Part shown: piece after piece, positions 5,169 to 48,065 of the stretch
Numbering within the stretch: the first letter of the stretch is position 1
Layout: each line of letters starts with the position of its first letter
NCBI RefSeq assembly: GCF_002113885.1
Contig: NW_018408884.1
Span: forward strand, 837,616 to 901,615
Length of the DNA stretch: 64,000 bases
Reading direction: 5' to 3'
DNA from: Mizuhopecten yessoensis
Lineage: Eukaryota
Position numbers and translations under genes: made by a program
Notes under the pieces: generated by a model
What the model was told of the DNA's origin: nothing
Seen by the model: the letters and a program-made list of their open reading frames with translations, nothing else
Databases searched by the model: none

Positions 5169-7035
5169 TTGAAAGAATTAAAAAAAAATCTTGAAAATTT
5201 TAGTAGCGCGCATTATGTTGTTTGCTTGCAAAGCTGTGTCATTCAAATAGATCATAAATACCATACAAAAGCAGTTCAATGCTTAAGTACTAACATTCTA
5301 GCATAAACAGTGACAAAAATACCGATAAATAAATATATAAAAAACGATAAGCTAAACAGACTTTTAACGTGCCATAAGTAAAACAATATTTCATAAATTG
5401 CTCAGCATAAATTTATTTCCAGATTGTTGATTTTGTCAAACCTTACTTGTAAAGGAAATACTAAAAAGTGAGTGTCAACTCGGAGATGAAGCTCTCATTT
5501 GTTGTCTGCATGCCGATAACGTAACACTATCAATATTTTTTATGCTTGTAAATCGCAAAGAAGCTCCGAATTTTTTTTACAGGTAGTGCGTGGGTTCAAA
5601 GTTTATAAAACCTTTTTAATAAAGGTCGTTTCAGTCGTTTTAATTAATTTTCAAAATTCAAAACTAAGTGAGTTATATAGAGCACTATAACTGAATATAC
5701 ATATTAACTCCTACCTGTCACATAGGTATGGTGCTGCAGCAGCATTTTTCCAAGATGCATCGAAGTGAAGAAACTGTCAGCAAACACGTGGTAACCACGG
5801 TCAAGCAGGGACGCCTCGCTCAGTAGGTTGTATACAACGTTACTGTCCTGTAGCTCGCCCCGTGGAGTTGGGTCGAATTCTCGGCCTCTGTATATGGACA
5901 TTTGCAGAACGTACCCTGACGCTGACTCACAGAATATCCAAAACTTAATTCCGTACTTCGCGGCCTTGGAGGGAATGTACTGGCGCATCACACTATGGCC
6001 TTTTGTTCTCACCAAGGATTCATCAACACACAATTCCCTCCTCGGTATGATGACGCGCAGGAACTGTCTGTTGACGAAGTTAAGTAGAGGACGAAATCTG
6101 GCGGCAGGATGCTTAATTAAAAAATAAAATAAAAACCAGTAAATCTTTCTGAATATCTTTTACTCGAGAGACGTTGTTTTCGTTAATATTCACAACAGCA
6201 GGATGTATTTCTACAGCGACGTGACGTTACGTCATTTTATCTAGCACTTCTATCGGTAATATTTGTATATTTATCTGTTTCTTATAATTTTTACCGCGAT
6301 GAGTGGCCAAATACATTTTTTTCGTCAAAATTGAAAATTGTGTCTATGTGAATGACGTCAAAGTATAACATGTATGCTAACTTGTTAGATGAAAAGTGAT
6401 ATCTCAATGACAGTGACACGGATAATAATATAATCAATTTAATTATCATAAACTTGTCCGTGATATGGGATGTTTTGCATGTGCGATACTGCTTATTGAC
6501 AGTGCATAGTCGATATCGCGGACTGACCATATCCGCCCGGCATGCGCCATATTTATCCGTTACGCGCCTTATCGACCCGACATGCGCTATATATTTACCC
6601 GGCACGCGTCTTATCAACCCGACATGCGCCATATCCGTTAAACTTCCATCCCAATACTTTTCAGGAATATCATTAGACAGTGGGTGAAACAAACTAGTAG
6701 TGTACACACTGCGCATCCATCTGTTTTTGTTACGCCTTTCATTGCATTTTATTTTATTTTATAGAATGTGATGATATAAAAAATTGAATATAAATCTGCT
6801 GTGCGTTCTAGAAATAAATCAATTGTAGTAGTGTCATTATTTGTCATTATTACTTTCAAAATATTAACTTTACTTTTAACAAAAATATTACGTTAATTAA
6901 ATATATTATTGAATAGATACTATAATGAATTAAACTTATATTTATACGCGAGTACTTACATTATTTGCTTTTGGCTCTAGTGCCCGCTACCTCTTTTAAT
7001 TCCTATGCTGGCTAGGTAAAGATATAGGTGTACAA

Positions 7036-10000
7036 ATGTTCGCTGTGCTCGCTCTGGCAGCTCTGTTCAAAGTGACCAGTGCACCAGGCCCCAACAGCAA
7101 CTATAACTTCAAGGTACCAGTGTTGTTTGGAACCAACGTTCTGTCGGTATTGTTGGAAGGTTGTCGAAGCAGGAATGGACCGAAGTTCTTGCAGAAGGGA
7201 TTAGATACTCCATGGTTTTTAGCATTTCGCTGTATGACATTGAGGGATCGGGATTTGGTGAGAAATCGCAACAGCATTGGCCTCGTCAAGAATGCAGGAA
7301 ACATGGATTGCGTCCTTAGACCGAACTCTACTATCACCCTGAAGGGATATGTAGACCAGCGGAGCGCCTATCCAACTACCTGTGCTATCATGCAGCCCAC
7401 GGAACGATCCAAGCTGTCCAAAGATATTGATGTTACACCTACAGTGTTTTCATATGACTGCGACAGTACACATCCATTGGACGTTCAACTATCCAATCTG
7501 ACAACACATACGTTTATCATTCCTCCCAAGGCAATTTTATGTGAGATACAGCCAGTGATTGTCCAGGAACTTCCTACTGTTGATGGAGAGGTGGGAATAC
7601 CGAAGTCATTTATGGATAAGATAGACTTTACCAATTCAGCTGTTACGGAGGAGGAACTACAGCTAGGAACGAAACTCATAAAGGGATACGAGGATATATT
7701 TTCACACGGAGATACTGACCTCGGGTGTACTAATCTCGTGAAACATCGAATCGATTTGACGGATCCAGTTGCTTTTAAACAACGCCATAGGAGGATACCA
7801 CCTTCTATGTATGACGAAGTGAAGACTCATCTTCAGCAACTTTTGTCTGCGGGAGTCATCAAACCATCATACAGTCCCTGGTCATCGAACATTGTTCTGG
7901 TGAGGAAGAAAGATGGATCATTGAGGATGTGTGTGGATTTCCGACAGCTAAATCAACGCACCATTCGGGATGCATACGCGTTACCACGAGTAGAGGACAT
8001 CCTGGATTGTTTAGCTGGATCACACTACTTTACTGTGCTGGATTTAAAGTCGGGTTATCATCAGGTTGAGCTAGAGGAAGAACATAAGGAGCGAACTGCA
8101 TTTACCGTCGGCCCACTGGGGTTTTATGAGTTCACGAGGATGCCTTTTGGACTTACGAACGCTCCTGCGACATTTCAGCGCCTGATGGAGAGATGCATGG
8201 GAGACCTACACTTAGCTATCTGCCTGATATATCTTGATGATTTAATCATCTTTTCGCGAACGTATGAGGAGCATCTGGAACGACTAGGAAAGGTTTTTCA
8301 GAGACTCAGAGACAACGGTTTGAAGCTTGCGCCTAAGAAATGCCAGTTCTTTATGAACAGAGTTGCCTATGTTGGACACATCGTCACACCGGAAGGCATT
8401 GAGGCAGATCCCAAGAAGATTGAGAAGGTACGAGACTGGCCGACACCGTCTAATCCTGAAGAACTACGTCAATTCCTAGGTTTTGCTGGTTACTACAGGA
8501 AGTTTGTAAAGGATTTTTCAAAGATTGCGAGACCTTTAACTGACCTGTTACCACCGACCAGAGTAAAGAAGAACAAAGGAAGGGCAAAGACTAAGATAAA
8601 TGGCGTTAAGTGGACATGGGCATCGGAGCATGATACAGCGTTCAACGGCCTGAAGGAAGCGTTATGCAATCCTCCTGTGCTTGGATATGCTAACTACAGT
8701 CAGCCGTTTGAGCTTCACACCGATGCAAGTACCTTAGGACTAGGAGCCGTTCTATATCAAGAGCAAGATGGACAGTTACGACCTATTTGCTACGCCAGTC
8801 GAGGATTGAGCAAGTCGGAGAGGAATTACCCGGCTCATAAACTGGAATTCCTGGCGTTAAAATGGGCAGTTACCGAAAAGTTCCATGACCATCTATATGG
8901 ACAGACGTTCACCGTTTTAACGGACAACAACCCGCTGACCTACGTTTTGTCGAAAGCAAAGCTTGACGCGACGGGGCATAGGTGGTTGTCCGCTCTAGCG
9001 GCATACAACTTCGATATTAAGTATCGACCAGGACGGAACAACGCGGACGCAGACGCTTTGTCACGGCTTCCGGGATGTAACATATCATCAGAATCTGTCC
9101 AAGCCGTCTGTAAAGGAGCAACGTTTTGTAAAGGTTCATTGGTGGAAAGCTTGAGCCTATCAACAGAGGTATTGGATATGCTTGACGTTGATGACGAACA
9201 TGGTTTCCAAACCATGACACCCCACCAGTGGCGAACTCTTCAGACGGAGGACGATGTTATAGGGGAATGGCTACCCATCATTAGGAGGAATCTGAAGCCA
9301 ACACGGAAGAGGTTTTCAGCTATACCAGAAAACGCAACCCTTAACAGATGCTGGGATAGCTGGAAACTGAAACGTGGTGTGCTATATAGACGGGTATCTG
9401 ATGGTGAGACCGATGTGGACCAACTTGTACTTCCGGTTGCCATGCGAGAGAAGGTCCTGACGTCATTACACAATGACATTGGCCATCCTGGAAGGGATAG
9501 GACGTTATCTCTGCTGAGAGATAGATTCTTTTGGCCTGGTATGACCAAAGATGTGGAAACGTGGTTGAAGGAATGCCAGAGATGTCTACTCAGGAAATCG
9601 TCGACTAGCATTAGGGCTCCGTTAGTCAACATTGTTACCACCCAACCTATGGAGTTGGTATGCATGGACTTCTTGAAACTAGAGGCGTCTAAAGGGGGGT
9701 TTCAAGATGTTTTAGTAATCACCGACCATTTTACGAGGTATGCCAAAGCCATTCCAACTCGGAGTCAGTCGGCTAAAGCAACAGCGGAGGCTTTGCAGGG
9801 ATTTATTGAACATTACGGAATTCCGCGGAGATTACATTCCGACCAAGGAGCTAACTTCGAGGGGAAAGTAATAGAAAGTTTGTGCGAAACATTTCATATT
9901 ACTAAATCGAGAACGACACCATACCATCCTAGCGGAAATGGAATGTGCGAACGTTTCAACAGAACCCTGATCGACATGTTAGGCACATTGGAACCGCATC

Positions 10001-11040
10001 AAAAGAAAGACTGGAAGAGCTTTGTGGGTTCGCTCACATATGCGTACAACTGTACACGGCATAAGACAACGGGTTATTCGCCATTTCAGCTGATGTTTGG
10101 ACGACAGCCACGATTGCCCGTTGATCTATTGTGTGGAGTAAACGAGGAAATTACCCCAACTAGCATGCCGGATTATGTCAAAAACATGAGGAACCGGATG
10201 TCACATTCGTTCAGCTTAGCGAGTAAGAAGGCTCGGGAATCGCAGAGTCGTCAGAAGGCAGGCTACGATCTACGTAGTAGAGAAGCCGTTTTGGAACCGG
10301 GTGACCGCGTTCTTGTTAAGGTACTTGCCTTTGAGGGACGTCACAAGCTAGCGGATCGCTGGGAGCCTGACGTATACATCGTACAGAGTCAACCCAACAT
10401 TGACATTCCGGTATACACCATACTTCGAGAGAGTGGTGAAGGAAAGAGTAGAACTCTTCACAGAAACCATCTACTTCCAATTGGAACTATACCGGTGGAA
10501 GTGGATACGGTACCCATTGCACATCCACCTCGGCCGGTACCTCGTGTTAGGAGGTCGAGGATGGATAGTGGTCCGCATCATCGGAAGTCTGTGGCTGAGC
10601 CTGTTGTATCACCGCCTGTAAGTGACAGCAACGAGAGCTCGGATGAGGAATTTGTGGGTATGAACGTTCCTACTAACGTTCAACGGCCTCCCACACAGGA
10701 CAAGGTGCAGCCGAGCAAGGACATGACACCCGTACCTGGACCTCAGATCGACTTCAGTGATGAGGAGACATCGGAATCGGAACCGGAGGATGAACCTGCA
10801 GCTGCAGTACAGGGGAATACTACTTCGCCTGATCCGGAGATTCCAATACCCCGACGATCGACAAGGAACAAACGACCGCCTAATTGGATGACATCAGGCG
10901 AGTTTGTTTGTTCACAACAACCTGCTGGAGCGGAATGGAAGATGAAAGCCATGTTTCTGATGGACATAACATCTACAGCATCCTTCGGAGATATGCCAGC
11001 ATCAGCCCAACAGGCATTGTTAAATATTTTAACTGGTTGA
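7036..11040 (+). CDS. Gypsy pol polyprotein, 1334 aa (LTR-derived leader, protease C-terminal remnant, RT, RNase H, integrase)
   Basis: RT motifs LDLKSGYHQV, MPFGLTNAPATFQR and YLDD; RNase H motifs TDAS and ADALSR; integrase HHCC (LHNDIGH..CQRC) and D-D-E (MDFL, SDQG, ERFNRT). No D-T/S-G protease site and no gag. Confidence 0.92.
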   Translation: MFAVLALAALFKVTSAPGPNSNYNFKVPVLFGTNVLSVLLEGCRSRNGPKFLQKGLDTPWFLAFRCMTLRDRDLVRNRNSIGLVKNAGNMDCVLRPNSTITLKGYVDQRSAYPTTCAIMQPTERSKLSKDIDVTPTVFSYDCDSTHPLDVQLSNLTTHTFIIPPKAILCEIQPVIVQELPTVDGEVGIPKSFMDKIDFTNSAVTEEELQLGTKLIKGYEDIFSHGDTDLGCTNLVKHRIDLTDPVAFKQRHRRIPPSMYDEVKTHLQQLLSAGVIKPSYSPWSSNIVLVRKKDGSLRMCVDFRQLNQRTIRDAYALPRVEDILDCLAGSHYFTVLDLKSGYHQVELEEEHKERTAFTVGPLGFYEFTRMPFGLTNAPATFQRLMERCMGDLHLAICLIYLDDLIIFSRTYEEHLERLGKVFQRLRDNGLKLAPKKCQFFMNRVAYVGHIVTPEGIEADPKKIEKVRDWPTPSNPEELRQFLGFAGYYRKFVKDFSKIARPLTDLLPPTRVKKNKGRAKTKINGVKWTWASEHDTAFNGLKEALCNPPVLGYANYSQPFELHTDASTLGLGAVLYQEQDGQLRPICYASRGLSKSERNYPAHKLEFLALKWAVTEKFHDHLYGQTFTVLTDNNPLTYVLSKAKLDATGHRWLSALAAYNFDIKYRPGRNNADADALSRLPGCNISSESVQAVCKGATFCKGSLVESLSLSTEVLDMLDVDDEHGFQTMTPHQWRTLQTEDDVIGEWLPIIRRNLKPTRKRFSAIPENATLNRCWDSWKLKRGVLYRRVSDGETDVDQLVLPVAMREKVLTSLHNDIGHPGRDRTLSLLRDRFFWPGMTKDVETWLKECQRCLLRKSSTSIRAPLVNIVTTQPMELVCMDFLKLEASKGGFQDVLVITDHFTRYAKAIPTRSQSAKATAEALQGFIEHYGIPRRLHSDQGANFEGKVIESLCETFHITKSRTTPYHPSGNGMCERFNRTLIDMLGTLEPHQKKDWKSFVGSLTYAYNCTRHKTTGYSPFQLMFGRQPRLPVDLLCGVNEEITPTSMPDYVKNMRNRMSHSFSLASKKARESQSRQKAGYDLRSREAVLEPGDRVLVKVLAFEGRHKLADRWEPDVYIVQSQPNIDIPVYTILRESGEGKSRTLHRNHLLPIGTIPVEVDTVPIAHPPRPVPRVRRSRMDSGPHHRKSVAEPVVSPPVSDSNESSDEEFVGMNVPTNVQRPPTQDKVQPSKDMTPVPGPQIDFSDEETSESEPEDEPAAAVQGNTTSPDPEIPIPRRSTRNKRPPNWMTSGEFVCSQQPAGAEWKMKAMFLMDITSTASFGDMPASAQQALLNILTG

Positions 11041-11335
11041 GTATGTGTGCCATTTTACGTAACGTTATTTGAACGTTAATATGCATTTGTATATGTAGTA
11101 TGTATGTGTAAATGGAAACCCCATGGAAGATGAGGACATCTTTCATTTAAGCGGGGGAATACCTGATGAATTGGGGAGTTAATATATATTTTTTTGTTTT
11201 TTCCTCAGTTGCAGATTTTATATTTGAATTGTGTGTAAATATTTTGCATGGACTTTTGTTATATTGTTTTATGTTTTATTTACATTATTTCCTGATCATG
11301 TAGATGAGGACATCTTCCATCTAAGGAGGGGATAA

Positions 11336-12270
11336 TGTAGTAGTGTCATTATTTGTCATTATTACTTTTAATATATTTGTGGTATTTAGCTATACGCGTT
11401 CGTATGTAACGGAAATCAGCCTTCCGTGTAATTTTGTACGTCACGCATTGCGGCAAAACTTTTAGCGCGCGCGCGGAAATAGCACGCGTAAATGCGAGTA
11501 AGGTACTGAGCGGATGTGATGTAATGTGTTGTAAACCTGTTTGTCCAGTACGTATTGTCTATGTATAGAATACCTAGTATTGAATGTAGGGTAATTTACC
11601 TGGTGCACTGGTCACTTTGAACAGAGCGGCCAGAGCGAGCACAGCGAACATTTGTACACCTATATCTTTACCTAGCCAGCATAGGAATTAAAAGAGGTAG
11701 CGGGCACTAGAGCCAAAAGCAAATAATGTAAGTACTCGCGTATAAATATAAGTTTAATTCATTATAGTATCTATTCAATAATATATTTAATTAACGTAAT
11801 ATTTTTGTTAAAAGTAAAGTTAATATTTTGAAAGTCTTTGTAAATTTAGAAATCGGGCGTGGTCAATTTAGTAGACAAGTGATTTCGAAGAAGCAAGTTT
11901 TTAATATATATTGTTTCCTTTTATAGCTTACATTGAACGAGTAAGACTGAGGACTCGGCGGACTTTGTCCGAGAAAACCCTCTTCACATTGAAGAGGTGG
12001 GTATTTTAATATATTTGTAATTATGCTGTATTTCTATATAATATATAGATTGAATGTAACAGTTGTAATACGTATTCCATTATTGTAACTTATGTAACTG
12101 GCTACGGCCAGGTAGTTGTTTGACATGTCTTAGCTTATGTGATTGTATAAATGTTATATGTGTAGTAATATGATGTATTTCATGTTACAGGGTTTTTACT
12201 TACGTAATAAATGAACTGAGAAAAGAACCCAGGAGTTGTCGTATATCCACGATAAAAGACGACTATTACA
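11336..12270 (+). repeat. Complete 3' LTR (935 bp)
   Basis: TG...CA ends, preceded by the PPT; TATAAAT at 11741 and AATAAA near 12207. Confidence 0.92.
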
Positions 12271-13541
12271 CAATTAATTTTGTATGCCGAGATGGAATGA
12301 TAGTGTGACTATTTTGTTCAAAGAGGAGCGCATGGAGGGCATTTTATTCGAGTCATACTTTACATGTACAGTAAGCGCATGACTTCTTCAATTAAGAGAG
12401 TAGGGTATGCATGTGTTATAAGTACTGTGCTGCACTGAAAGGGCACACATACGCACGCGGACCTACTCACATTGAGTAAACATTCTTTGTATAAAACAGA
12501 TCACAATGTGTACCAATGCATAGTCTATAATTTACCTAGACGACACTGTACTAACCTCTCTTCCAACCATGCGTCGGAAATCTGCGATATGTAGAAATTT
12601 CAAAATATTTTGAAAAACCAAGATGAACGTTGACTTGGTAGTCTTGAATTCCAGTATTCGGGAATCAAATGGAATTGAAGGCTTTCTTACAATGGACATG
12701 TTGTAAAATATTGAAAGAAATGCTTTCAATTCCGACAAGATAATTTTTTTCCAGGAACGCGCCCTTGCATTATGTCCCAAATTATTCTGGTTTGTCTGCA
12801 GATGGTGGTGTGCATACCTAAAATGTCAAAGATACTTCAGTAACTTGTCTAACACCTAACATCCAGGGAAGACAACATCATGCAATACTTATCAATAAAA
12901 CAGATATACCGATAGTTTTTTCAGGGGTCATACACATTTATCAGGTAATAACGAAACTGTTGATAAAATGATAAAATGTAAAATATAAAAATAAAAGAAT
13001 ATTTTAAACAAGAAATGCTTTCAGTCATTTTCAAAGGCTTTTTCAAGTCATATATATAATTCAAGGGTTTTTCAAGACCTGTGCGACCACTGTGTTTAAA
13101 ACAGAATTGGGTTCCTGAACTCAAACTATTTCATGATTTATGAAGATTGAAAAGTTTATGTAAACTATTACCTGTTGGTGTGCCGAATTATTTCCTTCAT
13201 CAGTGTCTCTGGAAAAAGAATCATGAAATATGAAAATGGCCGAGAATCCCCGGGAGGCATATGAAGAGGCCTAGGAGCTTCGTAAAAGCCAGGACCCCTG
13301 TCGGGTTCAGGTGGAAACATCCGCATCCATGGAACGGCCATTACTACAGGTGCTTTGCAAAACAATAATGACGTCACTTTGACTAAAGATGACGTCAAAA
13401 TTACGTACCTTTTACATCATCATTTTTCGCGTTGAAAGACGTCATGAAACCCAACGTCATAATTTTGTATGGCAATCAAGATGAGGTGGCATATGATATA
13501 GAAACATTCAACAAAATAAACAACAAACTCTATTTATATAG

Positions 13542-14555: not shown

Positions 14556-15348
14556 GGTTATTACACTGAAAGAGTGTTATAATCTTGTCACCAAATACAC
14601 AGGTGTATCGAACCACAATTATAGTTATATCTTATAACCCAAAACACAGATATATCTACCTTAGGAACAGGTATCACATTACTGAACAAGCATACATTTT
14701 AGACAATACACGCCAGGTATGTAAATGCTACGATTTATAAACACAACCTCCACTGACCTACTTTACTATCGATTTCTTTATTATCACTGTATGTCTGTCG
14801 GTAACCTCGCTCAACACGGAAGTTATTTAGTCTGTACAACAGCAGGTCTAAACAGGTAGATCTACGCATTGCTGCAGTGATGGGCGTATCCAGAGCAGAA
14901 ATTTGTTTATGTTACTAACTAGTCAGCAGCATTGTCAAATTCAGCCGAACTTTTGACTTGAAGTTTTGATCAAACTTTTACAATGTCAGCAGGAAAGTGA
15001 CAGATTTATCAGCAAAGCTAGAGGGAAGTTAATCATGTGATTGTGAATCCCAGGGCTGGAAAACCATAGACAATGTAAGTGAACCTTCTGAAGTGTGGAA
15101 CGGTAAACCTGGATTCATCATCACAGTAACCCTGTGACATCAGTGATCGTGAGGTAGTTATTCTACAGTGTTTTTACATTGCTATAAGTTTAACAAACAT
15201 ATACTACTGGATGTGACAGTTATAAGTCAAGTTTTCATTTCTTTACATAACAAACTCTTATTTGTGAGTGTTTACTGATAACAATATATTTATACAAGAA
15301 CAACAAACATCTTCAAGGCTTCAACAAATATTTCAGATTTTCATCATA

Positions 15349-16926
15349 ATGGCAACCCCTAAAAGCCAATTTCCACTCCGTATTAAAGGTCAAACGACCT
15401 GTATTCACCACAAGGGGAGACAATTGGATTTTTACTGTGAAAAGTGTCAGGAACCGGTTTGTCCAAAATGCCTTTCTTCTATTCACAAAACTCATACAGT
15501 GTGTGAGCTAAGTGAAATCATTCCCCAGAAAGAACCAGACATCAAAAACTTTATAGACAGAACAGAAAAAAATGACCTTGTACGAATTGGAAAATACATC
15601 ACCACAACTGATACGCTCCTTAAAGACAACGCCAGTACTTTTGAGAAGCTGTCACAAAAGTTAAAAATGCAAACAGATAAATTAAAACAAGAGCTGGACA
15701 TGCTTACAGCACAGACACTCTCTCTTTACCACAAAATGGAAGAGGATAATACCACGCTGATAAATAAATACAAACAGGACCTGGAGATGTACGAGAAACA
15801 ACTCAAATCACAAATTCAAGAATGCAAAGCAGCTCTCCAGCGTGGTTCACACATACAGATTTATGATACATTTTGTGAGATCCATTCTCCTACACACAGT
15901 CTCCCTGTAACACCTATCCTGGGTACTGCCAACTTCACTTCAAATGAAAAACCTCAAGATCACTTAAAAAAAGCCTTGGGAAAAGTTATCACCTCAGGTC
16001 AAGGTCAAACTTTAACTGACCAGGATCGGTCAGTCTGCGGACAACCCTCTACACAACAACAACAGTCAGGAACAAAAGTGAAGAAAGCAGTGACAACATA
16101 CAAACTACTGCCACAGACCAAGGTAGTGGAGGAGTGGAAGTCTCCACGTTACATTTATTCTATATGTCCCACCACTGATGGTCAGGTGTGGACCACGGCC
16201 AGTGACACATTAACTCTCCTGGACAGGAAGGGTAAAGTAATACAGGAGGTCAAACACAATGTCTACATCAATGACATCAGTCTGTCACCCACCACACACA
16301 CACTGTGGGTCTGTGATGATAAAAATAACATCATGGAGCTGGTATCAGGACGACTGACACACAGATTCAGTACCAAGGAGGAACCCAGGTGTATATGTGT
16401 TACAGCCAGTAACCATGTCATTGTAGGGATGTACAGACACATCTCCAAATTTACCACAGATGGTAAAATGGTGTGTACTACTATGGCTAAAGGGACTGGG
16501 AAACCATTAGTGTGTTCACCACGCAGGATCTCAGAGTGTCCTGTCACTCACAATGTGGCAGTCGTTGATTTCAGAGATGGTGGTGATGGAAACAAACATG
16601 TTGTTGTGATGGACACTGATTTCAAGGAGCTGTTTGTGTATAGAGGTGACATCCCCAGTACATATAAACCAACACCACAAACAGAAGGTAGACCATTTAA
16701 CCCCAGTGGTGGTGTGGTGTATGACTGTGTGGGGAACCTGATCATAGGGGACAGTATCAACCACAGGGTCCTACTCATCAGTGGAGGTGGTGAGTTCCTC
16801 AGGGTCATACACACAGACACAGACTGTGCAGTGGCTGTAGGTATAGACAGGGAGGATGTCCTGTGGGCAGTGTTTGGGTCATGGCTTGTTAGCACAGTCA
16901 AACTACTACAGTACAGCAGTGTGTGA
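15349..16926 (+). CDS. B-box/coiled-coil/NHL beta-propeller protein (RING-less TRIM2/TRIM71-like, mollusc-expanded type), 525 aa, single coding exon
   Basis: B-box CIHH..FYCEKCQEPVCPKCLSSIHKTH, a coiled coil, and NHL-like repeats (FNPSGGVVYDCVGNLIIGDSINHRVLLI). The ATG at 15349 follows a TTTCAG acceptor; the ORF-track GTG start is upstream of that acceptor. Confidence 0.88.
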   Translation: MATPKSQFPLRIKGQTTCIHHKGRQLDFYCEKCQEPVCPKCLSSIHKTHTVCELSEIIPQKEPDIKNFIDRTEKNDLVRIGKYITTTDTLLKDNASTFEKLSQKLKMQTDKLKQELDMLTAQTLSLYHKMEEDNTTLINKYKQDLEMYEKQLKSQIQECKAALQRGSHIQIYDTFCEIHSPTHSLPVTPILGTANFTSNEKPQDHLKKALGKVITSGQGQTLTDQDRSVCGQPSTQQQQSGTKVKKAVTTYKLLPQTKVVEEWKSPRYIYSICPTTDGQVWTTASDTLTLLDRKGKVIQEVKHNVYINDISLSPTTHTLWVCDDKNNIMELVSGRLTHRFSTKEEPRCICVTASNHVIVGMYRHISKFTTDGKMVCTTMAKGTGKPLVCSPRRISECPVTHNVAVVDFRDGGDGNKHVVVMDTDFKELFVYRGDIPSTYKPTPQTEGRPFNPSGGVVYDCVGNLIIGDSINHRVLLISGGGEFLRVIHTDTDCAVAVGIDREDVLWAVFGSWLVSTVKLLQYSSV

Positions 16927-19926: not shown

Positions 19927-21039
19927 ACTGTTGATTCAACATTGTGTAAAGGTCAACTGATTGACAGAACAGTGTAGATGAGATTATGTTGAGCAACAAT
20001 CGTAAAACATATCACAAGACCGACCTGGATGTACGAGTCTAGAAATAGTTCAAGGTCAGTTTGTGAATTGAACAAGAATGCCATGGAATCGAAGATGGTG
20101 TGTCACCTGCCGCCCCCCCCCACCCCCACCCCCTGCTAATTTTCAGATTTGTGTCAAAATCAAACTTGAGTGATAATTGATACAATAGACATGTGTCGGT
20201 TGTTGCATAAATATCAAAGCATTACTTCATATGTTATCGCACAAAAGCCATGTAACTTTTGAGAGAAAAAAAAAATCAAATTGGCTATTGAGGCCATGTT
20301 GATTTCATAACTGGTTCAAAATCAACTTGAGTGGATAATTGATACCATAGTTAGGTGTGGAAAATTTTATGAAAACAAAAACAATTCTGCAAAGGTTATT
20401 GCATGGAAACCACTTCAAATGGCCACTGGTGGTATTATTGAATTTCAAAATCAATCTGTTCTTTTATAGTTATCAAATAGAAACCACCTCAGGCCATACT
20501 GAACGTCAGGTCTGTGTCAAAAACAAACCTGTGCAAGCTCTTGTAGAATTTTTCATGAAAATTAAATCAATCTTTTTAGAGTTATCACACACCTCAGTTG
20601 TTGAAATCGAAATCCAAGATGGCCACCGGCAGCTATATTTAATTTCAGACCAGTCTAGAGGTCGAATTTATGCATGGATTAATGCTATAATTATTTTTTG
20701 GGAAGTTTCATGAAAATCAAAGTACTCCTTTGAGAGTTATTGCCCAGAAAACTTCATGCAGATAATCCATTGGGCGATGCCAACACTGATGGATCAATAC
20801 CTATAGGTCACGTTCACAGGCGAAAAAATACAAAGAGCACAAAACAATCTTCAGTATTCTGTAAAATAGAACAAGAACACCATCGGTTTATGTTGAAATA
20901 CTTCATTTCTCTTTAAAAGGTAAAATATAATTTAAAGCACAATTAATTGCATCGGAAAAACAACATACTTTTCTGTTATAACTACATATATACAAGTGAC
21001 AAAGGTCACATATCAAGACATGTTTCATACTGACAAAAG

Positions 21040-23150
21040 TCACACACACATCTCAACCGTGTACACAGGTCTGGTCACACACACTCCTCAACCATGTACA
21101 CGGGTCTGGTCACACACACTCCTCAACCGTGTACACGGGTCTGGTCACACACATTCCTCAACCGTGTACACGGGTCTGGTCACACACACTCCTCAACCGT
21201 GTACACAGGTCTGGTCACACACACTCCTCAACCGTGTACACAGGTCTGGTCACACACACTCCTCAACCGTGTACACAGGTCTGGTCACACACACTCCTCA
21301 ACCGTGTACACAGGTCTGGTCACACACACTCCTCAACCGTGTACACAGGTCTGGTCACACACACTCCTCAACCGTGTACACAGGTCTGGTCACACACACT
21401 CCTCAACCGTGTACACAGGTCTGGTCACACACACTCCTCAACCGTGTACACAGGTCTGGTCACACACACTCCTCAACCGTGTACACAGGTCTGGTCACAC
21501 ACACTCCTCAACCGTGTACACAGGTCTGGTCACACACACTCCTCAACCGTGTACACAGGTCTGGTCACACACACTCCTCAACCGTGTACACAGGTCTGGT
21601 CACACACACTCCTCAACCGTGTACACAGGTCTGGTCACACACACTCCTCAACCGTGTACACAGGTCTGGTCACACACACTCCTCAACCGTGTACACAGGT
21701 CTGGTCACACACACTCCTCAACCGTGTACACAGGTCTGGTCACACACACTCCTCAACCGTGTACACAGGTCTGGTCACACACACTCCTCAACCGTGTACA
21801 CAGGTCTGGTCACACACACTCCTCAACCGTGTACACAGGTCTGGTCACACACATTCCTCAACCGTGTACACAGGTCTGGTCACACACACTCCTCAACCGT
21901 GTACACAGGTCTGGTCACACACACTCCTCAACCGTGTACACAGGTCTGGTCACACACACTCCTCAACCGTGTACACAGGTCTGGTCACACACACTCCTCA
22001 ACCGTGTACACAGGTCTGGTCACACACACTCCTCAACCGTGTACACAGGTCTGGTCACACACACTCCTCAACCGTGTACACAGGTCTGGTCACACACACT
22101 CCTCAACCGTGTACACAGGTCTGGTCACACACACTCCTCAACCGTGTACACAGGTCTGGTCACACACACTCCTCAACCGTGTACACAGGTCTGGTCACAC
22201 ACACTCCTCAACCGTGTACACAGGTCTGGTCACACACACTCCTCAACCGTGTACACAGGTCTGGTCACACACACTCCTCAACCGTGTACACAGGTCTGGT
22301 CACACACACTCCTCAACCGTGTACACAGGTCTGGTCACACACACTCCTCAACCGTGTACACAGGTCTGGTCACACACACTCCTCAACCGTGTACACAGGT
22401 CTGGTCACACACACTCCTCAACCGTGTACACAGGTCTGGTCACACACACTCCTCAACCGTGTACACAGGTCTGGTCACACACACTCCTCAACCGTGTACA
22501 CAGGTCTGGTCACACACACTCCTCAACCGTGTACACAGGTCTGGTCACACACATTCCTCAACCGTGTACACAGGTCTGGTCACACACATTCCTCAACCAT
22601 GTACACAGGTCTGGTCACACACACTCCTCAACCGTGTACACAGGTCTGGTCACACACACTCCTCAACCATGTACACAGGTCTGGTCACACACACTCCTCA
22701 ACCGTGTACACAGGTCTGGTCACACACACTCCTCAACCATGTACACAGGTCTGGTCACACACACTCCTCAACCGTGTACACAGGTCTGGTCACACACACT
22801 CCTCAACCATGTACACAGGTCTGGTCACACACACTCCTCAACCGTGTACACAGGTCTGGTCACACACACTCCTCAACCATGTACACAGGTCTGGTCACAC
22901 ACACTCCTCAACCGTGTACACAGGTCTGGTCACACACACTCCTCAACCATGTACACAGGTCTGGTCACACACATTCCTCAACCGTGTACACAGGTCTGGT
23001 CACACACATTCCTCAACCATGTACACATGTCTGGTCACACACACTCCTCAACCGTGTACACAGGTCTAGTCACACACATTCCTCAACAGTGTACACGGGT
23101 CTGGTCACACATATTTCTTAACCGTGTACACAGGTCTGGTCACACACATT
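21040..23150. repeat. Minisatellite, 35-bp unit, ~60 near-identical copies
   Basis: GGTCTGGTCACACACACTCCTCAACCGTGTACACA repeated. Confidence 0.98.
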
Positions 23151-24747
23151 TCAAACCAAGGCAGACGCAATGTTATCAAGTTCAGCAAGTTTACATCTCA
23201 TTTCATCTTAAAAGACAAATTAGCATACCATTTCTTTTAAAAATAAACAGGGGAATCTAAGGACTCCACAAGACAGATGTGTCCGGTATCTGAACCACTG
23301 TTGATCAGGAGCCGCATCTAGGAAGTGATACACTGAAACATGTTATAAAAGTTCCATATCCAGTAGTCCAGAAAAAGCACTACAACAAAGTACCTCCCTA
23401 AGCACTGCTCTGTTTTAACCTGTACAGATGTTATTACCTGTACAAACTTGTAGGGTTGAGTGTGGTAAGGGCATATCTCTATATTGATGTAAGGAGGAGA
23501 GATACAACCACACTCCACTCAACTCTCAATACATGGGTGTGTGGCATATCTTATTGCTGTGTAAAGGATCTTTTTGTCATTTAACTTCTGTCCTTCAACA
23601 AAAGTGTGAATTCAACACGAGATGAAAGTATCCTTTCTGTACCCACCACAGCGCCCAAGAGACTACCCCTGTTGAGACCTGGCCCTGGGATCAACACGAA
23701 ATGAAAGTATCATTTCTGTACCCACCACAGGGCCCAAGAGACTACCCCTGTTCAGACCTAGCCCCGGGATCATGAAACAATCTAAGACCTTAGTTTTTGC
23801 TTAGTCAATCACGCGTGACGTTACTTTTATGACGTTATCTGTGATTGGTCAAGACAAAACTTAAGACAATTTGAGACAATTTGGGCCTGTAGTAAGAGGC
23901 CACTGGTAGTGAATTTCACCGTTATATGAACCTGTATTAAGGATCCCTGTTCCACTGCTGACAAAACACTAGAGAGTTCCACTGTAGTTTTTCGAGCATA
24001 CCTCCTTAATTAAATTTAGGGGACACGATGAGCCAGGTTACTACCGTCGACCAGGTAGCTCTGTTGGTAGTTAGAGCTACAGTATGATAATCTGAGGTTG
24101 GAATCTCAGTCTAGCTCAGTTGCATTCTTACACTAGAAACACATTTCTTGATTTCAGTATTTCATCTTCATTTTGTTCCTTAAAAAGATCCACAAAGTAT
24201 GGTTTTCTATTCAGAAATGCTGGAAAGAAAGTTCCAACTCATAGCTACAGTTTTGGGCCGTGGTATGCGGGTCCCTAAGTCACTTTATGGACCTGCTTAA
24301 GGTGGTTTCAAAATACAAGGTTTAACTGTACTGGTAAGTAAACAGGCAAAGTCAACACTTTACAAACTTGTTTTTAATATGTAAGTACTACATAACAGCT
24401 TTGAAAATTGGGTAAACACTTGGTTTTTGATTATTATCCTTTCGTCAGTCTGGGTATGTAGGAATGAAAATAACTATGTAACTGAAAAAATGTCATATTT
24501 AACTATTGACATTACTGGAGATTATTTCGGGGTTTTTTAAGATGGTCAGTCTCTTGTAACAGCACACTTGTAAAGTGTAGTGATGACTCAGTGATGATTA
24601 GTAATTCTTTTGAAATTGTTAACTTTAGTTTAAAGCTTCATAGATTAATTCTAGAGGAGTGAGTTACTTATTTATCCATGCTAATCAATGAGGTGTGACA
24701 GTCATTGATATAGATAAAAAGTAGTTTAACTGAAATACTGATTATGG

Positions 24748-26712: not shown

Positions 26713-29700
26713 TCAAGGTGTCTCCTTGGTGGTTCCGAATTGGTTGAGTTTTTTCTTGTATTCCTCCGCCTCTTCCTCCTTCTGTTTGAGCTGCTGTTTG
26801 TAGTTCTCCGCCTGTTTCTGGATCTCCTCCAGTTGTTTACGTAGAGCGTCCTTATCTAGGCTCTCCAGACTCTCTTTGTTCTGTAATCATCAAATAAGTA
26901 AATACTGTATAGTTGCTCATTTTTTGTGGGGGTTTTAATTTCGCTACATTCACGATCACCAAAGATAGTGCGAAATTAAACACCCAGTGAATATTAACAC
27001 CATGAATAAACAGAGATAAAAGAAAAGACCTGTTTATTATATTCCTGCTGAATAACGATGACGATAAAACACCCATCAGTATCTCTCTATGTACCTCTCT
27101 AATGCTGAACATTTAAAGGTAACCAACTGGTGTCTGTGGTCATACCAATTAGGACAAGCACCAGCTTTTCTTTGTAGGCAATAGATTTACAGAATAGGGC
27201 TTAGGTATGTTTGAAAACTTATCATTATTATTATTACTACATGGTTAACAGCTCATCAACACAGGAGAAGTCACTTGGCCAACAAATGGTCGACAAAAAC
27301 CTTTAATTCTTCACCAGTTGATTATCAGCAATAAAATCCAATCAGGGCAGGAACATTCTACATGTCTGGCATACATAGGTTTCAAAGCTGCTATTCTTTT
27401 AATTGAGTAAGTTATCTAGTGCTTCACCCCAGGTAGGTTTGACCTCTGACCCAACAATGATCAATGATTTTGTTGTGTATGACTTACCTCCAGGAGTTTC
27501 TGTATGTCAACCGATGCCGAGTCCCCCTCCCCCTCGTCCGTCCGCTGACGTTTAGCTGGGGGCTCCTCTGTAAACAAACAATAATGTCTTCAGTATTATC
27601 AACAAGTGGGTTGGGGGGATGGGGGGGGGAATCCTTTAAAATTAAAATGTTGTGAAAGTTTCAATGGAGGAATCACTGTTTTTTTTCACTAAATGCTTTC
27701 ATATATGATATTTGGACAGAAGAAAATTTGAAATCATAGGGCTCAAAACACAAGGGAGCCAATCCTTTATATTTCAACACATTTATTTGATTTTCATTTT
27801 TATATGTATGAAGGTTGATGTTTTTTTCTTGAGAAATAATCAAAAGCGCTATCACTTATCTTATTGGTTATTTGTGTGGTCTTCCGTGACTGAACATTTC
27901 ATACAGGATTACCGGTGTATACCAGGCCTCTGTACAGTGACTGAACATTTCACACAGCATTAACTGTGTATACCGGGCCTCTGTACTGTGACTGAACATT
28001 TCATACAGGATTAACTGTGTATACCAGGCCTCTGTACTGTGACTGAACATTTCATACAGGACTAACTGTGTATACCTGGCCACTGTACTGTGACTGAACA
28101 TTTCATACAGGATTACCTGTGTATACCGGGCCTCTGTACTGTGACTGAACATTTCATACAGGATTAACTGTGTATACCTGGCCACTGTACTGTGACTGAA
28201 CATTTCATACAGGATTAACTGTGTATACCTGGCCTCTGTACTGTGACAGAACATTTCACACAGGATTAACTGTGTATACCAGGCCTCTGTACTGTGACTA
28301 AACATTTCATACCAGATTAACTGTGTATACCGGGCCTCTGTACTGTGACTGAACATTTCATACAGGTTTAACTGTGTATACCGGGCCTCTGTACTGTGAC
28401 TGAAGATTTCATACAGGATTAACTGTGTATACCTGGCCACTGTACTGTGACTGAACATTTCATACAGGATTACCTGGGTATACTGGGCCTCTGTACTGTG
28501 ACTGAACATTTCATACAGGATTAACTGTGTATACCGGGCCTCTGTACTGTGACTGAACATTTCATACAGGATTACCTGTGTATACCAGGACTCTGTACAG
28601 TGACTGAACATTTCATACAGGATTAACTCTGTATACCGGGCCTCTGTACTGTGACTGAACATTTCATACAGGTTTAACTGTGTATACCGGGCCTCTGTAC
28701 TGTGACTGAACATTTCATACCGGTTTAACTGTGTATACCGGGCCTCTGTACTGTGACTGAACATTTCATACAGTATTAACTGTGTATACCTGGCCACTGT
28801 ACTGTGACTGAACATTTCATACAGGTTTACCTGTGTATACCGGGCCTCTGTACTGTGACAGAACATTTCATACAGGATTAACTGTGTATACCAGGCCTCT
28901 GTACTGTGACTAAACATTTCATACAGGATTAACTGTGTATACTGGGCCTCTGTAGTGTGACTGAACATTTCATACAGGATTAACTGTGTATACCTGGCCT
29001 CTGTTCTGTGACTGAACATTTCATACAGGATTAACTGTGTATCCCAGGCCTCTGTACTGTGACTGAACATTTCATACAGGATTACCTGTGTATACCGGAC
29101 CTCTGTACTGTGACTGAACATTTCATACCAGATTACCTGTGTATACCGGGCCTCTGTACTGTGACTGAACATTTCATACAGGATTACCTGTGTATACCGG
29201 GCCTCTGTTTTATCTGGCTATCTACTTACCTGTGGTGTCGACAGTAAGAGTTGCGTCCCCTGCTCCTCCACCTGTAATCTCCTCTAGCACCGTCGTCTCC
29301 TCAGCAGTCAGCTCTGATTGGTCGTGACCAGCTACTATGGTTATAACTTTCTGAAAAATCCAATCAAAACACGAAAAATAAAAAGATTACTTTATCAAGT
29401 AAAAATCAGCTGCATTTAGAAATACATTATGTACCTGTAGAAAAGTATTGGGACACTCTACCATAACTACAAGGTCTGTACACAGTAGAAAAGTATTGGG
29501 ACACTCTACCATAACTACCAGGTCTGTACACAGTAGAAAAGTATTGGGACACTCTACCATAACTACCAGGTCTGTACACAGTAGAAAAGTATTGGGACAC
29601 TCTACCATAACTAACAGGTCTGTACACAGTAGAAAAGTATTGTGACACTCTACCATAACTACAAGGTATGTACACAGTAGAAAAGTATTGGGACACTCTA

Positions 29701-45260: not shown

Positions 45261-46527
45261 TTTCACATAATATGATATTATTTCGCAGTGTAAAAATTCC
45301 CTTGAATTGATTATATCCGTCAACAATTACATTTGAGTCCAAATTAAATGACATATCCGGATATTATAAGCTTCAAATACTAAAGGGCATCAAAAAAATC
45401 AAACTTACACTGAGAATCAAATAGTTGAGATCTACTTACTGAGCGAGCTTAGGTTGTGATGAGGCTAACGGGAAATAGCGGGCTAAACGATATTTTGCGA
45501 TATTTCACATTCAACCTACTTCCTGTTAATAATTAACCCCGCCCATTTGTACAGTTGATTGACGTTTCGACCACAAGTTCATTATTGGAAGAAAAACCCA
45601 AAAAGAGAACGTGTTATTTATCTTAACAAAAAAGTTCATAACTTTCTTTACAAACATCAACACATCTTATTGACTAACTTCTTAAGTTGTTGGTTTTTTA
45701 TATTTATTTTACTCAGAGACTCTATTTTACTGCATTTAATTTTCTCGTAGGTCAGACATCTTTTTTAATTGACTTATATTTCAATAGTATTTAAACGGCT
45801 CATAAAATAAACGCTTTTGCTGTTATGCATGCGTTATATCCTAAGCTTTTCATGGCATCAAACATAAGAACAATGTCCCTTTTTTCGAGATTCTAATTTG
45901 AGCGGATTTTAGTACAACCGTAAAAAGCTGACGAGGTCGCTTATGAGACCTCATCACATCAACTTCCTGTTAAAATTAGCCACGCCTTTTAGCTTCACGT
46001 TTGAACTTTTCACAAATGAAAGATGGTATCTGGAGTTAAAGGATATCAACAATGACACCAATTAGACTACGTGTTAACAGAAAGAAGTATGCTTACTTCC
46101 TCAAGTGTTCGTAAAATTCCGAGACTGAAAACACAGCAAGTATCCATGGAAAGGCGTAGAAGATTGATGAAGTTTGTTTACGTGCCAAGGCCATTGTGTA
46201 CATCACAATCACATTGTGTAGCGCACAGGACACAACATCAGCACATGGTCAACAGATAGCGACTTCAATATCTCTTGATCGTTGGTAACAAAATGCCGCC
46301 CTAATTAAGATGTGATGAATGATCTCCGAGTACAATAAGAAACGTCCGTGATACATGATGCTAGGGACTCGGGCATCTGTCTTATAATGAGATTTATTGT
46401 TTTATTAATTGAGAAACAAAAACACTTTACTTGTCTAGTCATTATTTAATCATTTTATGTTTTTCAGTTTTACAATCTACTTACACTTTTTATCGCTGGT
46501 GCTAATTTCATAATTTTAAGTAATGAA

Positions 46528-48065
46528 ATGAATAGTGGACACTCGCGTGCAATCGCAAATACTTGCGAACGAAGTCAGAATAAACTTCAGATGATAGCAG
46601 AAATGTTGCTTCTGTCTTGTGAGGCCCGTCCGCTTCGATCATGTTTTTCTAGTCACATTGTCAGTCCGTCCTACCTCCATGAAAAAATATCGGCCACCGT
46701 TAAAACAATTATGACTTTGATGAAGGCTATTATAGCGCATGTACATATGATCTCCACAAAATGGCTTGAAATTTGTGAAGGGCTTCAAGAATTGAGTTCT
46801 ACGACAATCGGTTTGATCGAACTGTGCAGTCACACAGCCTACTTGGTTGCAGTGGACTTCCCCGGCTGTGAGCTGGCAGAGGATGGACTCGTCGACAGAT
46901 ACAGTGTGTTGCTGTCAGGCTTGGAGATAAAGATGAGTTGTAACCGATTGAAGCGTGCACGGGTAGAAGATTTAACCCCACAACTCATAATAGATCTGTG
47001 TTCCAACATCTCACGCCATATCTCTGTGATCACAGATATATGTCGCCTGGCCGGAGAATCGGTCACGGATGAGAGCACATCTGATCAGTTCAAACTTTGT
47101 GTGAAGAGTGTGACCTGTGCTGCGGGATGCCTGATTGCCAGTATAAAATCCTACAAGTCGCATCCCAGCCATACGCATCATTCCAGAGTGATCGTTTTCT
47201 GTGAACCCGTTCTGGCAGCATCCACAGCACTAGTCGGTTTTGCCACGGAAGACGATTTTACAGGAAAGCAAGCTCTACTTACATCAAAAGCTAGAGACAC
47301 ACAGAAGGCAGTACTAGGTGAGAGATGAGTCAGAGATGTCAGAGGAAGTGACGTCTTTGTTTAACCATTATCTGATCAGGTTCAGATGGTATAAACTAGG
47401 GCTGCAGCGATACATTAACATGATGATACACTACGTATTACGATAATGTGGTCACGATGCGTTATCATTTTAACCCCCCTATATAGCTACACAATTTAAG
47501 TAATTGATAGTATACTTTCAAAAAAATGAGGGAGGTAATATTTCTTTGCATTTTGATGATCTGATGATGAGCCCGAAATAAGGTTTTGCTAGAATTTGTA
47601 TAAGCCTGTTTATAAACTTTTGAATTCAGGATCGAACCTGCTGACAAATTCAAGCAAAAATATGTATACATATTATATAACCTATTGAAGTATAGATGTA
47701 CAGTTGTAGAAGATGAGAGCTAATATCGTGTTTGTGTTGTAGGGTCCTGTATGAGTATCGTGTCGGCGGTTATACAGCTATGTAAGACCGTGCGTGACCT
47801 GGTTTACGATGTGATGAAGACACAACACCGCGAGAAACTCCACCTTTGTACGGATTCTGTTGAGCGTGCTTCGTCGAGGTTACATGACACCTTGGAGCAG
47901 CACAGTATAAGTGAAAGGGCCCTGGAGTTATGCAAAGTAAAAAACGACGAGGAAAATAGTAAGAATGAAGTGGACGAACATTGCGACAGTTACCATAGCG
48001 ACAGCACTTCTACCTCCACTGTGTCTGGATCAGAAAACTCGGGAAACTCAATGGCATCAAGATGA
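46528..48065 (+). CDS. TLNRD1: Talin rod domain-containing protein 1 (MESDC1); exons 46528-47317 and 47743-48065, 370 aa
   Basis: KLQMIAEMLLLSCEARP, ELCSHTAYLVAV, GLVDRY, DQFKLCVKSVT and ALVGFATE motifs. The phase-1 intron joins AVL-G-SCMSIVSA, matching the conserved vertebrate sequence. Confidence 0.92.

What the first reader, a model, noticed from the sequence alone, without database searches (positions are those of the whole stretch)
6824..7140. Gypsy 5' LTR, gag and protease replaced by an inverted LTR piece that gives pol a new in-frame ATG and signal-peptide-like leader
Seen: after 33 bp of normal LTR the sequence switches, through ACTTT microhomology, to the reverse complement of LTR 11599-11835 (6852-7088; one mismatch in 237 bp, a synonymous GCC>GCA). 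It then joins the tail of the protease (VPVLFGTNVL). The antisense LTR supplies ATG 7036 and MFAVLALAALFKVTSAPG in frame with an uninterrupted RT-RNaseH-IN, with TATTTATA about 90 bp upstream. TSDs are intact. Inference: a template-switch rearrangement created a gag-less, protease-dead pol gene that may be driven by the antisense LTR promoter and might be ER-targeted. Pro at +1 argues against cleavage, and the frame fusion may be chance.
Basis: partly seen in the sequence, partly recalled or inferred. Interest (0 to 1): 0.7.

Follow-up and report, generated by a model that had tools for sequence, protein, structure and literature searches.

The report
Retrotransposon copy with spliced-looking inverted head
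One copy of a gypsy-type jumping gene has lost its front half and carries a flipped piece of its own end repeat fused in frame to the enzyme gene; the join likely arose by RNA splicing before the copy was inserted, and the copy is probably a dead end rather than a new gene.

Summary
The described structure is in the assembly: 33 bp of LTR, a 237-bp inverted LTR piece, then protease tail, RT, RNase H and IN, with CAAT duplications. It is unique in this genome.

Three things change the reading. (1) The pol join sits one base from the best splice-donor match on the antisense LTR and from an acceptor-like AG in protease, phase-matched. This suggests an antisense-LTR exon spliced onto pol, reverse-transcribed and inserted after a strand jump at a 12/14-bp match. 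(2) The 'uninterrupted' pol is probably collapsed-repeat fill: 0 differences from three siblings over 3.8 kb. Intactness at this locus is not shown. (3) One low-depth contig in an independent RNA-like run spans the pol join with 7 mismatches, which argues against a pure artefact. A DNA run that carries the insertion shows neither join, but its contigs are pruned.

The ATG is absent from 7 of 7 older LTRs, the TATA is poorly conserved, and SignalP could not be run. Likely a dead-end copy. If transcribed through, it would form a 237-bp hairpin. Look-ups of the scan's earlier notes found nothing similar.

The parts
6820..6823 (+). left target-site duplication CAAT
   Evidence: single CAAT in the 3 closest paralogues of the host repeat; flank|LTR join spanned by a 75-bp contig in DNA run X1
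6824..6856 (+). stub of the 5' LTR (LTR 1-33), keeps the TG end needed for integration
6852..6865 (.). J1: ACTTT overlap inside a 12/14-bp inverted match between LTR 29-42 and LTR 500-487; the arm's bases are kept at both mismatches
   Evidence: exact J1 probe matches once in G000
6852..7088 (-). inverted LTR piece (LTR 500 to 264); likely first exon of an antisense LTR transcript
   Evidence: exon role inferred
6939..6946 (+). TATTTATA = reverse complement of the LTR's TATAAATA; poorly conserved, no promoter evidence
7036..7087 (+). ATG and hydrophobic leader MFAVLALAALFKVTSAP supplied by the antisense LTR
   Evidence: best 10-aa Kyte-Doolittle mean 2.84; ATG in 23 of 30 distinct LTR segments, 0 of 7 at 82-87% identity
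7087..7089 (+). J2: arm/pol join, one base from donor-like CAG|GTAAAT (antisense LTR) and acceptor-like TCTTTTGCTGGTAG| (protease); phase 1 to phase 1
   Evidence: unique in G000; spanned by X11 record 16
7089..7146 (+). last ~20 residues of the protease domain; catalytic DTG absent
7036..11040 (+). 1334-aa ORF in the assembly; 7204-11037 is probably collapsed-repeat fill, not locus-specific sequence
7900..8385 (+). reverse transcriptase (PF00078)
8617..9006 (+). RNase H (PF17919/PF17917)
9433..10059 (+). integrase (PF17921, PF00665)
11323..11335 (+). polypurine tract
   Evidence: sequence
11336..12270 (+). complete 935-bp 3' LTR (TG...CA); one private SNP at LTR 878; includes the arm's partner 11599-11835 and a GC box at 11855-11862 that the arm lacks
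12271..12274 (+). right target-site duplication CAAT

Best explanation
This is a single-copy, gag-less and protease-less Ty3/gypsy insertion whose front end is a flipped piece of its own LTR, likely made when an antisense LTR transcript was spliced onto the pol of a nearby copy, reverse-transcribed and integrated, and it is probably a dead end. Shown: the structure, the two joins, the TSD, the uniqueness in G000, and a contig across the pol join in one independent run. Inferred steps: (1) an LTR lying head-to-head with, or nested in reverse inside, another copy was transcribed antisense from near LTR 500. (2) The RNA was spliced from the donor at LTR 265 to the cryptic acceptor in protease, in frame by phase match. 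(3) The RNA (arm-pol-PPT-U3-R) lacks a PBS, so it would borrow minus-strand strong-stop DNA from a co-packaged normal RNA. (4) The minus strand, on reaching the arm's end, would anneal by the 12/14-bp match to LTR 29-42 of plus-strand strong-stop DNA and copy LTR 28-1. That restores both integrase ends. (5) Integrase inserted it with a 4-bp TSD. The copy has no PBS, gag or active protease. The leader is an incidental feature of the young LTR subfamily, and any protein would likely be non-functional.
For: Donor: J2's left side is the top-scoring of 45 GT sites on the antisense LTR and the only one matching MAG|GTRAGT at 8/9 or more. CAG|GT is kept in 27 of 30 distinct LTR segments. Acceptor: ranks 16, 5 and 4 of 487 internal AGs under three crude scores. 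Chance of both: about 4e-5 for a free join, about 2e-3 if an AG/AG overlap is granted (post-hoc, using the rank-16 score). J1 is the best inverted match to LTR 29-42 (12/14, next best 10/14) and one of only 3 such pairs in the LTR; the arm's bases are kept, which fits minus-strand priming. Both LTR termini and a true TSD are present. X11 record 16 (206 bp, depth 2.95) is laid ungapped from 7046 to 7240, with 43 bp left of J2; it is the only X11 contig over 7099-7240, and X11 has no cover of the flank. The T at 7161 is also in X1's contig, so the anchored segment is not simply a noisy read.
Against: The first base after the AG is G in the window but T in 7 of 7 acceptor copies found in G000. 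A clean splice needs a parent with that variant or a later change. The acceptor ranks only 88 of 487 under a fourth score. No head-to-head parent was found: only the window has both orientations among 49 of 55 stretches with element pieces, though only 40 of 130 LTR candidates were scored. DNA run X1 carries the insertion but has no contig across J1 or J2. X11's RNA status is a guess, its contig has 7 mismatches of which only 7203 is listed, and J1 was not seen in either run of the narrow lay. No antisense start site or use of the donor was measured.
Confidence: 0.45

Rival explanations
1. Same structure, no splicing: a deletion-inversion-deletion of the 5' end made by two template switches, either during reverse transcription or by replicative/end-joining repair after insertion. 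The frame fusion is chance.
For: The arm is what an in-place inversion of the element's own 5' LTR would give. J1 has 12/14 homology. J2 reads as blunt or AG plus a tolerated mismatch, and its G matches the LTR side exactly. It needs no parent locus. 9.4% of 1314 breakpoint/frame combinations give an in-frame ATG, and 3.4% give an equally hydrophobic leader. Other copies show plain internal deletions (L021, L031, L032).
Against: It leaves unexplained why J2 falls on the best antisense donor and on an acceptor-like AG in matching phase.
Confidence: 0.33
2. Assembly artefact in whole or part: one or both joins were made by gap filling in a fragmented assembly, and the true locus has a normal or simply inverted 5' end (J2 would then exist only as spliced RNA).
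For: G000 has 82,659 contigs. Several copies have N gaps between LTR halves, and family interiors are visibly collapsed. The 33-bp stub is about one k-mer long. Carrier run X1 has no J1 or J2 contig: depths are exactly those of the ordinary LTR and pol contigs, and a 2462-bp contig runs on into normal protease. A short LTR-deletion joint survives in X1 at depth 15.3.
Against: X11 has a contig across J2. The private differences near J2 match the end-only divergence seen in other copies, so the segment looks locus-anchored. Logan contigs are simplified with SPAdes-like heuristics (PMC12424806, passage). X1 shows signs of pruning: multi-kb unbranched contigs through a multi-copy family, and only one of two linked LTR-deletion joints listed. 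The polarity of J1 fits molecular priming better than an overlap join.
Confidence: 0.15
3. A selected new gene: an antisense-LTR promoter drives an ER-targeted RT-RNaseH-IN protein.
For: In-frame ATG with A at -3, a 10-residue hydrophobic core, and a possible V-T-S|A cleavage site. An RNA-like contig spans J2.
Against: Single copy and young. The ATG is absent from 7 of 7 older LTRs. The TATA-like site is non-canonical and in the least conserved bin. Two upstream ATGs give tiny ORFs. The open frame is probably assembly fill, and at 1-2% neutral divergence the chance of no stop is 0.17-0.03. Depth at J2 is about 3, against 27-48 for ordinary LTR sequence in the same run (contigs measure level poorly). 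RT and IN have no known role in the ER lumen (established knowledge).
Confidence: 0.04

Closest known systems
Ty3/gypsy LTR retrotransposons (closest solved structure: Ty3-G Gag-Pol, PDB 7q5b, E 4e-105)
   Same: PR-RT-RH-IN order in siblings, TG...CA LTRs, PPT, 4-bp TSD, PNMA-like gag with zinc knuckle.
   Different: This copy lacks most of the 5' LTR, the PBS, gag and the catalytic protease. The clade was not determined; PMC6238403 (passages) lists 21 mollusc clades, and no reference sequences were compared.
LTR-mediated retroposition / chimeric retrocopies (Tan et al. 2016, PMC5131818; section 5 and passages read)
   Same: Part of the element is replaced by another RNA-derived segment. Both integrase ends are kept, microsimilarity lies at a switch point, and the insertion is young. 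That paper notes a recurrent switch-back site near an exon-exon junction.
   Different: Here the captured piece is the element's own antisense LTR, not a host mRNA. The switch lies 33 bp into the 5' LTR and removes the PBS. The second join looks like a splice, not microsimilarity. The paper's main text has 0 occurrences of 'inverted'; its supplements were not read.
SpIREs, spliced integrated retrotransposed L1 elements (Larson et al. 2018, PMC5860796; abstract read)
   Same: A spliced element RNA is retrotransposed, loses promoter sequence, gives a truncated protein and is a dead end.
   Different: L1 uses target-primed insertion and sense-to-sense splicing. Here it is an LTR element, an antisense exon joined to sense pol, and a one-base mismatch at the join.
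Mu killer of maize (PMC3440606; abstract read)
   Same: A rearranged transposon copy with an inverted duplication that could give hairpin RNA against its own family. Here the arm and the 3' LTR form a 237-bp near-perfect duplex.
   Different: DNA transposon in a plant, with proven silencing. Here the stem is short, the loop is 4.5 kb, and no small RNA or silencing was tested.

Membership tests
Ty3/gypsy (family of the element) | pol order PR-RT-RH-IN | tested here: met
   Pfam on sibling pol and window ORF; Ty3 is the best PDB hit
Ty3/gypsy (family of the element) | TG...CA LTR ends, PPT, short TSD | tested here: met
Autonomous Ty3/gypsy copy | two full LTRs, PBS, gag, active protease | tested here: not met
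   LTR 34-263, 501-935, PBS, gag and the DTG motif are absent
Amplifying non-autonomous derivative | several copies sharing the rearrangement | tested here: not met
   one match each for the J1 and J2 probes in G000
LTR-mediated retrocopy (Tan 2016) | both integrase ends kept, with TSD | tested here: met
LTR-mediated retrocopy (Tan 2016) | microsimilarity at switch points | tested here: inconclusive
   J1 12/14; J2 none, or AG plus a mismatch
LTR-mediated retrocopy (Tan 2016) | captured host mRNA | tested here: not met
   the insert is 236/237 identical to the element's own LTR
Spliced retrotransposed element (SpIRE-like) | join exactly at donor and acceptor | tested here: inconclusive
   one base off; donor rank 1 of 45; acceptor rank 4-88 of 487 by score
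Spliced retrotransposed element (SpIRE-like) | unspliced parent locus or demonstrated splice in RNA | tested here: inconclusive
   no parent among the fetched loci; the RNA-like contig cannot tell parent from copy
Signal-peptide-bearing protein | positive SignalP call and ER entry | not testable with these tools
   only hydropathy was computed
Mu-killer-like hairpin silencer | inverted duplication within one transcription unit | tested here: inconclusive
   the inverted repeat is present; a read-through transcript is not shown
Mu-killer-like hairpin silencer | small RNAs and silencing of siblings | not testable with these tools
   no small-RNA or raw-read runs were offered

The most novel reading that the evidence does not exclude
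LTR elements can splice a divergent antisense LTR exon onto a neighbour's pol and re-insert the product without a primer-binding site, by using a short LTR-internal inverted match for the second strand transfer. The resulting copy segregates in the population, is transcribed, and acts either as a Mu-killer-like hairpin source against its own family's U3 or as a gag-independent pol mRNA.
Probability: 0.12. Interest if true: 0.6.

Novelty: new variant of a known kind. Interest (0 to 1): 0.32.

Why it matters
Most likely it is one broken transposon copy. Its value is as a footprint: it would show antisense-to-sense splicing between LTR copies and PBS-free completion of reverse transcription in an animal genome, and it offers a natural hairpin allele to test for family silencing. 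It also warns the scan that 'intact pol' in this assembly is not locus evidence, because repeat interiors are collapsed.

Tried and rejected
- My first reading (70% gap-fill chimera) rested on five differences clustered at 7059-7203 and on X1 lacking both joins. I lowered it after X11's contig, the shared T at 7161, and the finding that other copies also differ only near their ends.
- X9's joint 6815>12271 looked like an empty allele, but its 27 inserted letters match paralogues of the host repeat. It does not show polymorphism.
- X9, X2 and X3 show normal protease as the loose end at 7089, but 730 pieces were not shown, so absence of J2 there is not established.
- A conserved antisense signal-peptide gene in the family: rejected. 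The ATG is missing in 7 of 7 older LTRs. The antisense open frames of 70 aa or more listed in L002/L004 (longest 153 aa) were only inspected by eye and showed no obvious second exon.
- Protein search with the 72-aa junction peptide: 1 candidate, none at E<=0.001, lengths 39-126 only. The exact full ORF is not in the collection. The sibling protease region had no PDB hit.
- A-to-I editing as the source of X11's unlisted mismatches (5 A's in 7046-7075) is possible but untestable here.
- Literature searches for a direct precedent returned 0 papers or only analogues. This covers the held library only.
- The reciprocal inversion join was not searched genome-wide.
Full report
Observation. The element runs from 6824 to 12270, with a 935-bp 3' LTR at 11336-12270 and CAAT on both sides. 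It lies in another repeat whose three closest paralogues have one CAAT at the site, so the duplication is genuine. After LTR 1-33 the sequence becomes the reverse complement of LTR 500-264 (6852-7088; one mismatch, at 7059) and then joins pol. Against sibling copies the join falls at about residue 147 of the pol frame, in the protease domain (66-166) and past the DTG motif. ATG 7036 opens a 1334-aa frame with RT, RNase H and integrase hits, and Ty3 Gag-Pol is the best solved relative. Exact probes for J1 and J2 each match once in G000, and J2 still matches once with two mismatches allowed.

The open frame is not locus evidence. Over 7204-11037 the window has 0 differences from L003, L004 and L018 and 1 from L002. 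Yet these copies differ by 1-2% near their ends, and an older copy has a zero-difference island in the middle. The 5' and 3' LTRs of L001 and L002 differ by 10 and 14 substitutions. The interiors are therefore probably filled from one collapsed path. The window's own differences lie at 7059, 7088, 7109, 7161 and 7203, near the left flank, plus LTR 878 near the right flank. That is the same end-only pattern, so 6824-7203 looks locus-anchored and the rest of pol is unverified. At 1-2% neutral divergence the chance of no stop would be 0.17-0.03; shared subfamily variants would raise that.

Are the joins real? I laid 5 of 20 listed runs, all as Logan contigs.

DNA run X1 carries this insertion: a 75-bp contig spans 6779-6853 at depth 9.4. 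It has no contig across J1 or J2. Bin depths equal those of the ordinary LTR and pol contigs alone, and a 2462-bp contig continues into normal protease. This counts against the joins, but weakly. Contigs are simplified with SPAdes-like heuristics (PMC12424806, one passage). X1 has multi-kb unbranched contigs through a multi-copy family, and only one of two linked LTR-deletion joints is listed for it. The other joint did survive at depth 15.3.

Run X11 (RNA by guess, another study) has a 206-bp contig at depth 2.95 laid without gaps from 7046 to 7240, 43 bp left and 152 bp right of J2, with 7 other letters. It is the only X11 contig over 7099-7240, and X11 does not cover the flank. Only 7203 is listed as different. 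If the table is complete, the contig agrees with the window at 7088, 7109 and 7161, and six differences lie within 30 bp of its ends; I could not see its letters. So J2, or a near copy, exists outside this assembly. J1 was not seen in X1 or X11. For X9, X2 and X3 the piece table was cut. The T at 7161, unique among 8 G000 copies, is also on X1's contig, so it is a natural variant.

What made the joins. J1 is a 12/14-bp inverted match, the best for LTR 29-42 and one of three such pairs in the LTR. The arm's bases are kept at both mismatches, which fits the bottom (minus) strand priming on LTR 29-42 and copying LTR 28-1 (inference).

J2 has no exact overlap. Its left side is CAG|GTAAAT, the best of 45 GT sites on the antisense LTR and the only 8/9 match to the donor consensus (the scoring frequencies were recalled). 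Its right side follows TCTTTTGCTGGTAG, ranked 16, 5, 4 and 88 of 487 internal AGs under four crude scores. Both are phase 1, which explains the frame. The coincidence is about 4e-5 for a free join, or 2e-3 given an AG overlap (post-hoc). The blemish is one base: G in the window, T in 7 of 7 acceptor copies.

I put 0.45 on the splice route: an antisense LTR exon spliced to a neighbouring pol, copied with borrowed strong-stop DNA, completed at J1 in place of the missing PBS, and integrated. I put 0.33 on a plain deletion-inversion-deletion by template switching or repair, 0.15 on a full or partial assembly artefact, and 0.04 on a selected gene. No head-to-head parent was found: only the window has both orientations among 49 of 55 stretches with element pieces (some stretches overlap, and 40 of 130 LTR candidates were scored).

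Promoter, ATG and leader. TATTTATA is the reverse complement of the LTR's TATAAATA, does not fit TATAWAWR, and lies in the least conserved 20-bp bin of LTR 201-520 (0.72). The LTR's GGGCGTGG box (520-527) is outside the arm. The in-frame ATG is present in 23 of 30 distinct LTR segments and in none of the 7 at 82-87% identity, while CAG|GT is kept in 27 of 30. Random breakpoints give an in-frame ATG in 123 of 1314 combinations and an equally hydrophobic leader in 45. The leader has a 10-residue hydrophobic core and no basic N-region, and could be cut at V-T-S|A; SignalP was not available. A Pol with no Gag handle and no protease, sent to the ER or not, has no evident route to function (established knowledge). 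Without a PBS the copy cannot start normal reverse transcription, in line with its single copy.

A likelier consequence, if transcription runs through, is RNA structure. The arm and 11599-11835 would form a 237-bp duplex (predicted -412 kcal/mol) across a 4.5-kb loop, a possible source of editing or small RNAs against the family. This is untested.

Comparison. It works like LTR-mediated retroposition (PMC5131818, section 5 and passages read) and like L1 SpIREs (PMC5860796, abstract), and it has the shape of Mu killer (PMC3440606, abstract). It is a member of none by all defining features. It belongs to a Ty3/gypsy family whose clade I did not determine (PMC6238403, passages only). Searches for a direct precedent gave nothing or only analogues (listings only unless stated). 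No supplements were read, and those of PMC5131818 could hold similar cases. The scan's earlier notes had nothing relevant.

Verdict. A probably real, single-copy, dead-end rearranged retrotransposon with an interesting possible origin by splicing. The new-gene reading is unlikely. New variant of a known kind; interest 0.32.

Noticed in passing
L001-L004, L018, L021 and window 7204-11037: Copies of this family differ only near their ends and are identical in the middle; even an older, diverged copy has a zero-difference island. 5' and 3' LTRs of one copy differ by 10-14 substitutions. Repeat interiors in this assembly are collapsed, so LTR dating and ORF integrity are unreliable.
   Followed up: yes
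L004 8698-9239, L016, L027, L036, L037: A short LTR variant (1-392 / 593-663 / 855-937) recurs in G000; one of its joints is in runs X1, X9 and X3.
   Followed up: partly
window 11596-11635 (LTR 261-300): Conserved block (0.93-0.97 among 14 diverged LTRs) containing the antisense donor; possibly a regulatory motif.
   Followed up: partly
window 11128-11165: A diverged second copy of the PPT-containing block about 170 bp upstream of the real PPT.
   Followed up: no
window 6132-6818 and 12271-13030; 5707-6159: The element sits inside another repeat family (11 other matches at 87-95%), next to a DDE_Tnp_1_7 transposase fragment. The window copy lacks about 23 bp just left of the TSD relative to its paralogues.
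   Followed up: partly
window 10060-11037: Long acidic and proline-rich tail after the integrase core, with no Pfam hit.
   Followed up: no
window 15268-16926: Single-frame 552-aa B-box/NHL (TRIM-like) ORF.
   Followed up: no
window 27868-29217: 449-aa minus-strand frame with no Pfam hit at E 0.01.
   Followed up: no
window 46450-47328: 292-aa frame with a Talin IBS2B domain hit.
   Followed up: no
window about 20900-23260 and from about 48980: Tandem arrays of 35-bp and 44-bp units; the 35-bp array is open in three frames.
   Followed up: no
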